DNA from: Candidatus Latescibacterota bacterium
GTDB taxonomy: Bacteria > Latescibacterota > UBA2968
Assembly: GCA_965204375.1 (NCBI GenBank)
Contig: OZ241986.1
Coordinates: 4,928,001-4,992,000, forward strand
DNA: 64,000 bases
Reading direction: 5' to 3'
The notes beneath the pieces are model-generated. The model was given only the letters and a program-made list of their open reading frames with translations. It searched no databases and was not told the origin of the DNA. The translations under genes were made by a program, and so were the position numbers. Positions 24,352 through 25,308 of the stretch are shown in pieces (positions within the stretch are counted from its first letter, which is position 1; each line of letters begins with the position of its first letter).

Positions 24352-24924
24352 ATGCGCATCATCGCTGGGGAATTTAAGGGCCGCCGCATCCCCTTTAACA
24401 ACAAAAAGCACGGCAATGCCCGCGTCACATCCGACTTTGTCAAAAAAGCCGTATTCTCTTCCCTTGGCGAAATCCTCCACGGCAAATATTTCCTCGACCT
24501 CTTCTCCTGCTCTGGTCAAATCGGCCTCGAAGCCTGTAGCCGCGGTGCGCATGTGGTTATCAATGAACCCGACCGCCGCTGCAACCGCTTCATCGCACAG
24601 CTCATAGACAATTGGCATCTCAACGACCGCATCCAACTCTATGCGCGTCCCGCACAAAGACTCTTGCCCCAACTCGCGCGGTCCCGTTCCATATTTGACA
24701 TCATCTACCTCGACCCTCCCTATCACCAACAATTAGACGGACAACCCATGTCCTGCGCGATACTCACCCGCCTCGCAACAATGCCTATCCTTGCGCCCAA
24801 TGCCCGCATTCTCGTCCAACACGCCTCTCGTACAACACTACCAAAATCCTTTCCCAACCTCATCCTCTCCCGAGAAAAAAAATACGGCGACACAATGCTG
24901 AGCACATATACCCTTACTTTCTAA
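24352..24924 (+). CDS. rsmD: RsmD-family rRNA methyltransferase
   Basis: MRIIAGEFKGRR, LDLFSCSG, DIIYLDPPY, KKYGDT. Confidence 0.85.
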   Translation: MRIIAGEFKGRRIPFNNKKHGNARVTSDFVKKAVFSSLGEILHGKYFLDLFSCSGQIGLEACSRGAHVVINEPDRRCNRFIAQLIDNWHLNDRIQLYARPAQRLLPQLARSRSIFDIIYLDPPYHQQLDGQPMSCAILTRLATMPILAPNARILVQHASRTTLPKSFPNLILSREKKYGDTMLSTYTLTF

Positions 24925-24994
24925 CTTGCTATTCACTGCCAAAATCACTATGTTCTAAAAATTGCAAAAGCCATTATACCTGAAGGAGGAATCA

Positions 24995-25270
24995 ATGGAC
25001 AAACTCAGTTCCGCCGTCGATTTTAGACCGCGCAGCCGTCAGCTTTACATGGGCGACATGCCCTGGCTCCCGCGCATTACGGATAAAGCCCGCGCCAAAT
25101 TGCGAGGCTGCATCGGTGACTATGTCTATCCGTGACCCGCTGACAGAAAGTTCCTGGAGGAACTTGGGGTTGAAGCTGAAGAATTTACGAACATCGTCGC
25201 GTCCAGCCCGACCGATGCCGAAGTCATCGAAAAAGTAAAACCCATCTGGGACAAGTCGCATTCTGAGTAA
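24995..25270 (+). CDS. DUF5069-like small protein with in-frame TGA (candidate selenocysteine at codon 47), 91 aa
   Basis: AAGGAGGA RBS; PRSR…WLPRITDKARAKLRGCIGDYVYP-TGA-PADRKFLEELGV…; hairpin AAGTTCC-TGGA-GGAACTT 12 nt after TGA; terminator follows TAA. Confidence 0.8.
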
Positions 25271-25274
25271 CAAC

Positions 25275-25308
25275 AAAAAAGCCGCCACATAATGTGGCGG
25301 CTTTTTTT
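25275..25308. terminator. Bidirectional intrinsic terminator
   Basis: AAAAAAGCCGCCACAT-A-ATGTGGCGGCTTTTTTT. Confidence 0.85.

What the first reader, a model, noticed from the sequence alone, without database searches (positions are those of the whole stretch)
24983..25308. Hidden candidate selenoprotein: DUF5069-like gene with UGA at the conserved Cys and a SECIS-like hairpin
Seen in sequence: strong RBS (AAGGAGGA), ATG 24995, 46 codons, TGA at 25133-25135, 44 more sense codons to TAA 25270, then a bidirectional terminator. The protein reads …WLPRITDKARAKLRGCIGDYVYP-U-PADRKFLEELGV…. From recall, DUF5069 proteins read roughly WLPRMIDKARA…GEYIYPCPLD, which puts the TGA on the Cys. A 7-bp stem AAGTTCC/GGAACTT with a G-containing loop (TGGA) starts 12 nt after the TGA, and GACCC can pair with GGGTT as a lower stem, matching bacterial SECIS geometry. 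Inference: a 91-aa monocistronic selenoprotein with a probable redox or metal-binding Sec, missed by ORF callers. I do not know of DUF5069 as an established selenoprotein family but cannot verify novelty.
Basis: partly seen in the sequence, partly recalled or inferred. Interest (0 to 1): 0.9.

Follow-up and report, generated by a model that had tools for sequence, protein, structure and literature searches.

The report
Uncatalogued DUF5069 selenoprotein gene with SECIS
This small gene in an uncultured Latescibacterota bacterium almost certainly encodes a 91-residue selenocysteine-containing protein that standard gene callers cut in half, and it appears to add a family of unknown function (DUF5069) to the list of bacterial selenoproteins.

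Summary
In detail: RBS, ATG 24995, in-frame TGA 25133-25135, TAA 25270-25272, and a terminator. The read-through product is a DUF5069 protein (Pfam E=2e-16, and the match spans the TGA).

Comparative evidence is strong. In 84 distinct orthologous regions, 67 have TGA and 17 have TGC/TGT at this column. All 67 TGA forms keep an identical 12-nt core, TTCCTGGAGGAA, which forms a 5-7-bp stem with a UGGA loop starting 12 nt after the TGA. Its codons are frozen at synonymous sites, and one stem pair switches G-C to C-G in a whole clade. Only 1 of 17 Cys forms keeps the core.

The hairpin meets all four published bacterial SECIS constraints. It also has the same geometry as the hairpins after the TGA of selD and of an FdhA-like gene in this genome. 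The genome has selA, selB, selD and tRNA-Sec, and TGA is otherwise its commonest stop.

Cys dominates this column across DUF5069, including the one solved structure, PDB 3omd. In the model, Sec sits at the N-cap of helix 2 with no conserved partner Cys. The biochemical function is unknown, and a lone redox-active selenol is inferred.

DUF5069 is absent from a 2026 table of 119 prokaryotic selenoprotein families. The verdict is a real selenoprotein gene and a new member of a known kind.

The parts
24983..24990 (+). Shine-Dalgarno-like AAGGAGGA, 4 nt before the start codon
   Evidence: Read directly.
24995..25272 (+). Complete coding sequence of the 91-residue DUF5069-family selenoprotein (ATG ... 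TGA=Sec47 ... TAA)
   Evidence: Translation with TGA=U. Pfam PF16798 E=2e-16, 60.8 bits against a cut-off of 27, residues 12-83. Orthologues in 60 of 61 related genomes.
25133..25135 (+). In-frame TGA read as selenocysteine (residue 47), aligned with the family's Cys
   Evidence: TGA in 67 of 84 distinct orthologous regions and TGC/TGT in the other 17. PDB 3omd has Cys here.
25148..25165 (+). SECIS apical hairpin: stem AAGUUCC (25148-25154), loop UGGA (25155-25158), stem GGAACUU (25159-25165). The invariant core TTCCTGGAGGAA is 25151-25162.
   Evidence: Core present in 67 of 67 TGA forms and 1 of 17 Cys forms. Codons +5..+9 use one codon each in 50 of 50. Inner six pairs are paired in 345 of 348 cells, with G-C to C-G in 9 sequences. 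RNAalifold consensus.
25137..25178 (+). Possible lower helix of the SECIS (25137-25141 with 25174-25178) enclosing the apical hairpin. Weakly supported.
   Evidence: 73% of cells paired, some covariation at two pairs, but 35 of 58 unpaired at one pair. In this window, pair 25138-25177 is C-T (unpaired).
25275..25307 (.). Bidirectional intrinsic-terminator-like hairpin shared with the convergent ABC-transporter operon

Best explanation
window:24995-25272 (+) is a genuine bacterial selenoprotein gene.

Proposed mechanism: during translation, the UGA at 25133-25135 is decoded as selenocysteine by SelB carrying Sec-tRNA(Sec). SelB is recruited by a coding-region SECIS hairpin whose apical stem-loop (25148-25165, loop UGGA) begins 12 nt after the UGA.

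The product is a 91-residue, four-helix, short-form DUF5069 protein with no N-terminal hydrophobic segment, so probably cytoplasmic. Sec47 replaces the family's characteristic Cys in the motif Y-x-Y-P-[C/U]-P/G-x-D and sits at the N-terminal cap of helix 2.

Shown here: the gene structure, Sec/Cys pairing, protein-level conservation on both sides of the UGA, RNA-level constraint on the hairpin tied to the presence of TGA, and the presence of the Sec machinery.

Inferred: actual Se incorporation, SelB binding, and the biochemical role. My best guess for the role (about 40%) is a lone nucleophilic or redox-active selenol that works with an external thiol or substrate rather than an intramolecular partner Cys.
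For: (1) Family and alignment.
- Pfam DUF5069 E=2e-16 across the TGA.
- Of 32 database homologues, 23 have Cys at the column. Three end exactly at ...YP. Five read W there, and P0005 matches the gene in L037, which has TGA at that column, over the part compared. One is a frameshifted call.

(2) Recurrence.
- 50 of 53 orthologues fetched from relatives have TGA at the column, with identity down to about 50%.
- 63 of 80 named loci have TGA, including Poribacteria-labelled MAGs.
- De-duplicated, this is 67 TGA and 17 Cys among 84 regions.

(3) Coding constraint downstream of the TGA. Invariant residues carry free synonymous variation, e.g. F+17 TTT 25/TTC 25 and D+27 GAT 29/GAC 21.

(4) RNA constraint.
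- Codons +5..+9 (AAG TTC CTG GAG GAA) each use one codon: 43 of 43 for K+5 and 50 of 50 for the other four. The equally invariant Leu-22 uses 6 of 6 codons.
- The core is in 67 of 67 TGA forms but 1 of 17 Cys forms.
- The two in-genus Cys forms each carry a synonymous change in or next to the stem.
- One stem pair switches G-C to C-G (49 versus 9, 0 broken), and the outer pair switches A-U to C-G.

(5) bSECIS constraints, quoted from the PMC13188914 Fig. 2 legend, are all met.
- Loop 4 nt.
- Stem 6-7 bp.
- G at loop position 2, followed by G.
- 19 nt between UGA and the loop.
- MFE -12.9 to -13.8 kcal/mol.

(6) Same geometry as selD (stem starts 13 nt after TGA, loop GGU) and the FdhA-like gene (13 nt, loop GGUCU) in this genome.

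(7) Machinery.
- selA 580 bits, selB 389 bits, and selD 369 bits with its own TGA; tRNA-Sec found.
- selA is over its cut-off in 49 of the 50 TGA-bearing genomes. The exception, G050, is 80% complete.

(8) TGA is an ordinary stop here: it ends 1484 of 3480 open frames of at least 300 codons. The only UCA-anticodon tRNA is tRNA-Sec.

(9) Contigs from three RNA libraries of three studies bridge the TGA and the hairpin with no change in either.
Against: - There is no direct evidence of selenium incorporation or of SelB binding. Everything is comparative.
- The hairpin's free energy is not better than shuffled sequence (z=0.08).
- Most of the stem is invariant rather than covarying: 4 of 7 pairs never vary. 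Structural proof therefore rests on two pairs and on synonymous-site freezing. Relatives are not independent, so the counts overstate the number of independent events.
- The core also encodes conserved residues (F-L-E-E), so part of its conservation is at the protein level.
- Rfam found nothing at gathering thresholds. This is uninformative, because I do not know that Rfam has a model that would detect a bacterial coding-region SECIS.
- Two same-genus genomes use Cys although they have selA and selB, so Sec is not indispensable.
- The RNA-library contigs do not prove transcription, because DNA can be present in such libraries.
- Function: 25 of 60 distinct Sec forms have no other Cys. Ser replaces Cys in 21 of 164 family domains. 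The gene neighbourhood is not conserved between clades. The redox role is therefore only a guess.
Confidence: 0.9

Rival explanations
1. The TGA is a real stop. The gene is a decaying pseudogene, or it encodes only a 46-residue peptide, and the downstream frame is meaningless.
For: Standard gene callers stop there. Three database entries end at ...YP, and ten 50%-identity representatives end at column 46.
Against: The 44 downstream codons are conserved as protein with synonymous variation across 50 genomes. They match the DUF5069 profile through residue 83 and fold with the N-terminal half into one four-helix unit (pLDDT 81) that resembles PDB 3omd. The stop is always TGA, 67 of 67, never TAA or TAG.
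Confidence: 0.02
2. UGA is read through without selenocysteine, either by near-cognate insertion of Trp, Cys or Arg or by a reassigned code. The hairpin merely stimulates read-through or has another role.
For: Some public gene calls show W at this position. No experiment shows Se incorporation.
Against: The W forms are TGA at the DNA level: P0005 versus L037. TGA is the commonest stop of long frames. The only tRNA with anticodon UCA is tRNA-Sec. The aligned residue in homologues is Cys, the signature of Sec/Cys pairs. TGA forms co-occur with selA in 49 of 50 genomes. The hairpin has the same spacing and GG loop as those of selD and the FdhA-like gene in the same genome.
Confidence: 0.04
3. The hairpin is a by-product of conserved amino acids (K-F-L-E-E-L) plus codon bias, not a functional RNA element. 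Sec insertion, if any, would rely on something else.
For: The core encodes conserved residues. Four of seven stem pairs never vary, so they say nothing for or against pairing. The fold energy is unremarkable.
Against: Protein constraint cannot fix synonymous sites. Leu+7 is CTG in 50 of 50, while Leu-22 uses all 6 codons. The two adjacent Glu are fixed as GAG then GAA, while Glu+15 uses both codons, 29 and 12. Cys forms that keep F-L-E/Q drift at these sites, and only 1 of 17 keeps the core. Compensatory G-C to C-G and A-U to C-G changes occur in the stem.
Confidence: 0.03
4. The real gene is the antisense 98-codon ORF at 24992-25288 on the minus strand.
For: It is open in this window and in 39 of 84 distinct orthologous regions.
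Against: It is interrupted by stops in 45 of 84 orthologous regions. Variation falls on the third positions of the + frame. The + frame has the Pfam match.
Confidence: 0.01

Closest known systems
Bacterial selenoprotein genes with a coding-region SECIS, such as formate dehydrogenase FdhA/FdhF and SelD, as summarised in PMC13188914
   Same: In-frame UGA aligned with Cys in homologues. Stem-loop immediately downstream inside the coding sequence, with a small GG-containing apical loop 16-37 nt from the UGA. Dependence on selA, selB, selC and selD, which are all present. Same hairpin spacing as this genome's own selD and FdhA-like genes.
   Different: The protein family is different. The hairpin sequence is unrelated to those of selD and the FdhA-like gene, and it is unusually invariant (a 12-nt identical core across three clades). 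No experimental support exists.
Pfam DUF5069 (PF16798); solved example PDB 3omd, an uncharacterized protein of Leptospirillum rubarum
   Same: Significant profile match. phmmer E=1.2e-11 to 3omd with the motif Y-x-C-P-x-D aligned. Foldseek TM 0.69 (query-normalised), rmsd 2.1 A over 71 columns, 37% identity.
   Different: This is a short form: it covers profile positions 4-75 of 133, and it is 91 residues against 145. It has Sec instead of Cys. The family has no known function, so membership gives no mechanism.
Other families of unknown function listed as predicted selenoproteins (DUF523, DUF1858, DUF3179, DUF166, DUF1573; Table 1 of PMC13188914)
   Same: The kind of evidence is the same: Sec/Cys pair, TGA-bearing homologues in several organisms, and a bSECIS-like hairpin.
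   Different: DUF5069/PF16798 is not in that table of 119 families and subfamilies. The motif here has a single Sec without the UxxC/CxxU partner that most listed families have.
Hypothetical protein GOS_A (PMC2398784, 2008)
   Same: An uncharacterised marine-metagenome selenoprotein family with no conserved domain at the time, and with many Cys homologues.
   Different: Its identity is unknown to me. The alignment figure and Dataset S2 are not held, so I cannot say whether GOS_A is DUF5069. It is not carried into the 2026 table.

Membership tests
Bacterial selenoprotein gene (SelB/SECIS-dependent UGA recoding) | In-frame UGA aligned with Cys in homologues (Sec/Cys pair) | tested here: met
   17 of 84 distinct orthologous regions have TGC/TGT at the column. 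Cys is found in 118 of 164 family domain alignments. PDB 3omd has Cys.
Bacterial selenoprotein gene (SelB/SECIS-dependent UGA recoding) | Protein-level conservation on both sides of the UGA, and TGA-bearing orthologues in other organisms | tested here: met
   (codon table over 50 sequences); 50 of 53 orthologues have TGA; 63 of 80 named loci.
Bacterial selenoprotein gene (SelB/SECIS-dependent UGA recoding) | bSECIS model (PMC13188914 Fig. 2 legend): 3-9 nt loop; 4-16 bp upper stem; G in the first two loop positions; 16-37 nt from UGA to loop; MFE <= -7.5 kcal/mol | tested here: met
   Loop UGGA (4 nt, G at position 2 followed by G). Stem 6-7 bp. 19 nt between UGA and loop. MFE -12.9 and -13.8 kcal/mol. 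The bSECISearch program itself was not run.
Bacterial selenoprotein gene (SelB/SECIS-dependent UGA recoding) | Hairpin under RNA-level selection linked to the TGA | tested here: met
   synonymous sites are frozen. The core is in 67 of 67 TGA forms against 1 of 17 Cys forms. Compensatory changes occur at two stem pairs.
Bacterial selenoprotein gene (SelB/SECIS-dependent UGA recoding) | selA, selB, selD and tRNA-Sec in the genome | tested here: met
   all over the curated cut-offs; tRNA-SeC at C1:5303809-5303906.
Bacterial selenoprotein gene (SelB/SECIS-dependent UGA recoding) | Selenium actually incorporated at the UGA (75Se labelling or mass spectrometry) | not testable with these tools
   No proteomic data are available. 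RNA-library contigs bridging the site show at most transcription.
Pfam DUF5069 (PF16798) | Score above the gathering threshold | tested here: met
   60.8 bits against a cut-off of 27, E=2e-16.
Pfam DUF5069 (PF16798) | Full-length domain (133 profile positions) | tested here: not met
   only profile positions 4-75 are matched. The protein ends about 8 residues later, so it is a short form of the domain. About 90-residue forms are common among close homologues.
Pfam DUF5069 (PF16798) | Fold like the solved member 3omd | tested here: met
   AF2 pLDDT 81. 3omd_A is the only hit with E below 1 (E=0.028), TMq 0.69, rmsd 2.1 A.
Thioredoxin-fold / UxxC-CxxU redox selenoproteins | Partner Cys two residues from Sec, and a Trx-like fold | tested here: not met
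   The motif is YP-U-P/G-A-D with no adjacent Cys. 25 of 60 distinct Sec forms have no other Cys. The model is all-helical.
NCBIfam selenoprotein families (NF04xxxx models, including GOS_B and GOS_C) | Match to any NCBIfam model | tested here: not met
   0 families at E<=1.

The most novel reading that the evidence does not exclude
DUF5069-Sec is a previously uncatalogued selenoprotein family. It is near-universal in Latescibacterota and also occurs in Poribacteria-labelled sponge and coral symbionts. Its SECIS core of 12 identical nucleotides is shared by three separate Sec clades. That implies an ancient Sec form that was repeatedly converted to Cys, rather than the reverse. The Sec marks the otherwise anonymous Y-P-C-P-x-D cysteine, at the N-cap of helix 2, as the functional nucleophile of the whole DUF5069 family. 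This would be the first functional handle on that family.
Probability: 0.55. Interest if true: 0.6.

Novelty: new member of a known kind. Interest (0 to 1): 0.55.

Why it matters
- Annotation: this gene is truncated or mistranslated (W at the Sec position) in public gene calls for dozens of Latescibacterota and Poribacteria genomes. Correcting it adds a conserved, apparently single-copy selenoprotein to phyla that are prominent sponge and coral symbionts.
- Selenoproteome catalogues: DUF5069 is not among the 119 families and subfamilies tabulated in 2026, so it would be an additional family. It lacks the usual UxxC/CxxU context.
- Protein function: a Sec at a given position is one of the few sequence-only indicators that the residue is catalytic or redox-active. 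It therefore nominates the conserved Cys of DUF5069 (solved structure 3omd, function unknown) as the functional residue and makes the family testable.
- SECIS biology: the strict link between the frozen 12-nt core and the TGA, with natural decay in Cys forms, is a clean natural experiment on what SelB of this lineage requires.

Tried and rejected
- Rfam at gathering thresholds over the whole window gave 0 matches. This is uninformative for a coding-region SECIS.
- NCBIfam gave no family.
A natural Cys homologue returned only DUF5069 clusters with scores below 0.9, so it gave no functional lead.
- Gene neighbourhood gave no functional inference.
  - In this genus the neighbours are a TPR protein, an RsmD-like methyltransferase and a convergent ABC transporter.
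  - Another family has a glycyl-tRNA synthetase beta fragment upstream.
  - A third clade has a 497-residue upstream ORF with no Pfam family.
  - The first clustering attempt was muddied by overlapping spurious frames: one giant cluster of 371 ORFs.
- Domain fusions of DUF5069 are too diverse to fix a function: Cupin_2 three times, a NuoF-like FMN/4Fe-4S protein, a methyltransferase, an AI-2E transporter and dienelactone hydrolase. P0104 in that call is a low-complexity protein with meaningless hits.
- A partner (resolving) Cys was rejected: positions -8 and +24 are each clade-specific, and 25 of 60 Sec forms have none.
- Loss of the Sec machinery does not explain the in-genus Cys forms: G011 and G019 keep selA and selB. 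G059 has a Cys form and neither gene over its cut-off, but it is only 86% complete.
- The first script for the FdhA-like TGA printed nothing. This was fixed.
- No complex prediction was run, because I make no binding claim.
- Depth and gaps in the contig-based read layout cannot show transcript ends or expression levels.

Full report
**1. The observation**

- AAGGAGGA lies at 24983-24990 and ATG at 24995.
- There are 46 sense codons, then TGA at 25133-25135.
- A further 44 sense codons lead to TAA at 25270-25272.
- A bidirectional terminator-like hairpin follows at 25275-25307.
- The 7-bp stem AAGTTCC/GGAACTT with loop TGGA starts 12 nt after the TGA.

Taken alone, the fold is not unusual: -13.8 kcal/mol, z=0.08, and 97 of 200 shuffles fold as well. 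The case therefore has to be made by comparison with relatives.

**2. Family**

The read-through product (P0001, U written as C) matches Pfam DUF5069. The score is 60.8 bits against a cut-off of 27, E=2e-16, over residues 12-83, so the match runs across the TGA. It covers only profile positions 4-75 of 133, which makes this a short form. NCBIfam has no model for it.

**3. Sec machinery and code**

- The window lies in a 6.34-Mb single-contig genome.
- The genome has selA (580 bits), selB (389 bits) and selD (369 bits). All three are over their curated cut-offs, and selD has its own in-frame TGA.
- One tRNA-Sec lies about 100 nt after selD.
- TGA ends 1484 of 3480 open frames of at least 300 codons, so it is an ordinary stop here.
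- Record titles of near-identical loci name the organism as a Candidatus Latescibacterota MAG.

**4. Homologues at the protein level**

Thirty-two database homologues were found. In the alignment:
- 23 have Cys at the column (YPCPAD).
- 3 end exactly at ...YP.
- 5 read W (YPWGAD).
- 1 is a frameshifted call.

The W forms are TGA at the DNA level. P0005 matches, over the part compared, the gene in locus L037, which has TGA at that column. They are probably gene calls made under a TGA=Trp model.

**5. Orthologues at the DNA level**

- Among 61 genomes (own plus 60 relatives, spanning genus to class), 60 have a match, and 50 have an orthologue with exactly one in-frame TGA.
- I fetched 55 loci. 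Of these, 53 contain the orthologue: 50 with TGA at the column and 3 with TGC or TGT. The other two (L070, L071) are distant paralogue hits without the motif.
- A scan of one genome per species gave 80 named loci: 63 with TGA (including L127) and 17 with Cys (including L148). TGA forms also occur in Poribacteria-labelled MAGs.
- The two sets overlap. De-duplicated, they give 84 distinct regions: 67 TGA and 17 Cys.

**6. Coding constraint after the TGA**

Over 50 TGA forms, downstream residues are conserved while their codons vary. Examples are F+17 (TTT 25, TTC 25), D+27 (GAT 29, GAC 21) and P+36 (four codons). The antisense ORF is broken by stops in 45 of 84 regions.

**7. The hairpin is under RNA-level selection tied to the TGA**

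- Codons +5 to +9 (AAG TTC CTG GAG GAA) each use a single codon: 43 of 43 for K+5 and 50 of 50 for the other four. The equally invariant Leu-22 uses all six codons, and Glu+15 uses both.
- The 12-nt core TTCCTGGAGGAA is present in 67 of 67 TGA forms, with stems of 5-7 contiguous pairs. Only 1 of 17 Cys forms has it.
- That one exception, and the other same-genus Cys form, each carry a synonymous change in or beside the stem: AAG to AAA, and GAG to GAA.
- The only Cys form with a 7-bp stem has its loop changed to UACA.
- RNAalifold on 48 sequences returns the 6-bp stem with a UGGA loop.
- On 58 distinct TGA forms, the six inner pairs are paired in 345 of 348 cells.
  - Pair 24-37 is G-C in 49 and C-G in 9, with none broken.
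  - The outer pair is A-U in 19, C-G in 8 and unpaired in 31.
  - Covariation exceeds all 500 shuffles and all slid controls.
  - Relatives are not independent, and four pairs never vary.
- A lower helix (25137-25141 with 25174-25178) is paired in 73% of cells and is only weakly supported.

**8. Comparison with the SECIS definition and with this genome's other SECIS elements**

The 2026 review gives four bSECIS constraints in its Fig. 2 legend, which I read as a passage. All four are met here.
- The loop is 4 nt.
- The upper stem is 6-7 bp.
- G sits at loop position 2 and is followed by G.
- The spacing from UGA to the loop is 19 nt, and the MFE is -12.9 to -13.8 kcal/mol.

In the same genome:
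- The selD TGA is followed after 13 nt by ATCCAGC-GGT-GCTGGAT.
- An FdhA-like gene (…T-U-HAP…) is followed after 13 nt by TGGCC-GGTCT-GGTCG.

So the spacing and the GG-type loop are shared, while the sequences differ.

**9. Co-occurrence with the trait**

- selA is over its cut-off in 57 of 61 genomes, and in 49 of the 50 TGA-bearing ones. The exception, G050, is 80% complete.
- The two same-genus Cys genomes (G011, G019) keep selA and selB, so their Sec-to-Cys change is not due to loss of the trait.
- G059 has a Cys form and neither gene over its cut-off, but it is 86% complete.

**10. Evolution**

- A tree of 77 distinct proteins (Sec written as X) needs about 6 changes of the Sec/Cys label, and at least 4 are forced by well-supported branches.
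- There are three Sec clades: a large Latescibacterota clade, a clade with the C-G stem variant, and a Poribacteria-labelled clade.
- The tree is short (84 columns), midpoint-rooted for drawing only, and many forks are unresolved.
- The identical core in all three Sec clades suggests one ancient Sec form with repeated conversion to Cys. This is inference.

**11. Reads**

- The stretch, or part of it, is held by 20 listed runs from 13 studies.
- After laying four runs, contigs from three RNA libraries of three studies bridge the TGA and the hairpin. They are X10 (25051-25307), X16 (24973-25257) and X17 (24918-25279).
- No change is listed at 25133-25135 or at 25148-25164. The differences nearby are of the synonymous type.
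- In a sponge-metagenome DNA run (X4), 16 of 32 laid pieces are at least 99% alike.
- Contigs from RNA libraries do not prove transcription.

**12. The protein**

- AlphaFold2 with 21 aligned sequences gives pLDDT 81 and four helices: 25-36, 48-57, 61-70 and 74-89. This puts residue 47 at the N-terminal end of helix 2.
- The only meaningful PDB neighbour is 3omd, an uncharacterized Leptospirillum protein: Foldseek E=0.028, TMq 0.69, 37% identity, and phmmer E=1.2e-11. It has Cys at the aligned position.
- A library-wide search gave 414 hits at E<=0.001. Among 164 domain alignments in the best 149 proteins:
  - 118 have Cys at the column.
  - 21 have Ser.
  - 10 proteins end exactly at column 46.
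  - 1 has W.
  - 1 alignment ends before the column.
  - The remaining 13 have other residues.
- No partner Cys is conserved. Of 60 distinct Sec forms, 25 have no other Cys, 24 have one at +24, and 11 have one at -8.
- Fusions and neighbourhoods are diverse.
- The genome also has a 295-residue tandem DUF5069 paralogue without a TGA.
- The function is therefore unknown. A lone reactive selenol at a helix N-cap is my inference from general knowledge of redox cysteines.

**13. Novelty**

- 'DUF5069' occurs in 0 papers of the searchable library.
- I read Table 1 of the 2026 review PMC13188914 in full (section 7, parts 1-2). It lists 119 families and subfamilies with domain identifiers and contains neither DUF5069 nor PF16798.
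- deep-Sep (PMC12013277) and BSepDB (PMC13326102) do not mention it in the passages I saw.
- Searches for selenoprotein with Latescibacteria, and for selenocysteine with Poribacteria, gave nothing relevant by title or abstract.
- Several sources could not be checked:
  - 'Hypothetical protein GOS_A' of PMC2398784, whose figure and dataset are not held.
  - The BSepDB supplementary family table.
  - The groundwater-MAG candidates of Deng et al. 2026, cited.

**14. Verdict**

- This is a real selenoprotein gene (confidence about 0.9).
- It is a new member of a known kind.
- Its biochemical role is open.

Noticed in passing
G000:C1:5302781-5303906 (outside the window; locus L001): selD is itself a selenoprotein gene (…SCGG-U-ASKL…, TGA at C1:5302811), and tRNA-Sec lies about 100 nt downstream (5303809-5303906). 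Its SECIS-like hairpin is ATCCAGC-GGT-GCTGGAT, starting 13 nt after the TGA.
   Followed up: partly
G000:C1:3301785-3303839, minus strand (locus L152); TGA at C1:3303420-3303422: An FdhA-like molybdopterin oxidoreductase has one in-frame TGA in the motif …AAT-U-HAPT…, followed 13 nt later by a hairpin with a GGUCU loop. It scores below the TIGR01553 cut-off (136.6 against 814 bits for the best piece), so it may be a different member of the superfamily.
   Followed up: partly
G000:C1:718367-719254 (+): A 295-residue paralogue has two tandem DUF5069 domains. The first has Ser/Asn context (YGENSGLD) at the column and the second has Cys (YDCPID). Multi-domain DUF5069 proteins of about 295-440 residues recur in the relatives.
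   Followed up: partly
Database proteins P0003-P0006 and P0012; P0023, P0030 and P0032; P0033: Public gene calls of this gene are wrong in three ways. Some have W at the Sec position (TGA read as Trp), some are truncated at ...YP, and one is a frameshifted 80-residue call on a 367-kb contig.
   Followed up: partly
window:25328-29513 (-): A convergent ABC-transporter operon shares the bidirectional terminator with the selenoprotein gene. It comprises a permease with two BPD_transp_1 halves, an ATPase with a TOBE_2 domain, and a solute-binding protein.
   Followed up: no
window:24352-24924 (+): An RsmD-like methyltransferase (Pfam Cons_hypoth95, E=3e-40) ends 70 nt upstream on the same strand. 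No terminator-like site lies between it and the selenoprotein gene, so co-transcription is possible.
   Followed up: no
window:24850-25400 in public runs: The laid runs that hold this stretch are sponge and coral metagenomes or metatranscriptomes. Sponge run X4 has 16 of 32 laid pieces at least 99% alike, which hints that the lineage is a sponge or coral symbiont.
   Followed up: partly
Loci L120, L124-L126, L131 and others (21 loci): In the clade with the C-G stem variant and its Cys relatives, a conserved ORF of about 497 residues with no Pfam family ends about 9 nt before the DUF5069 gene on the same strand (L120:2-1492). This is a possible operon partner.
   Followed up: partly
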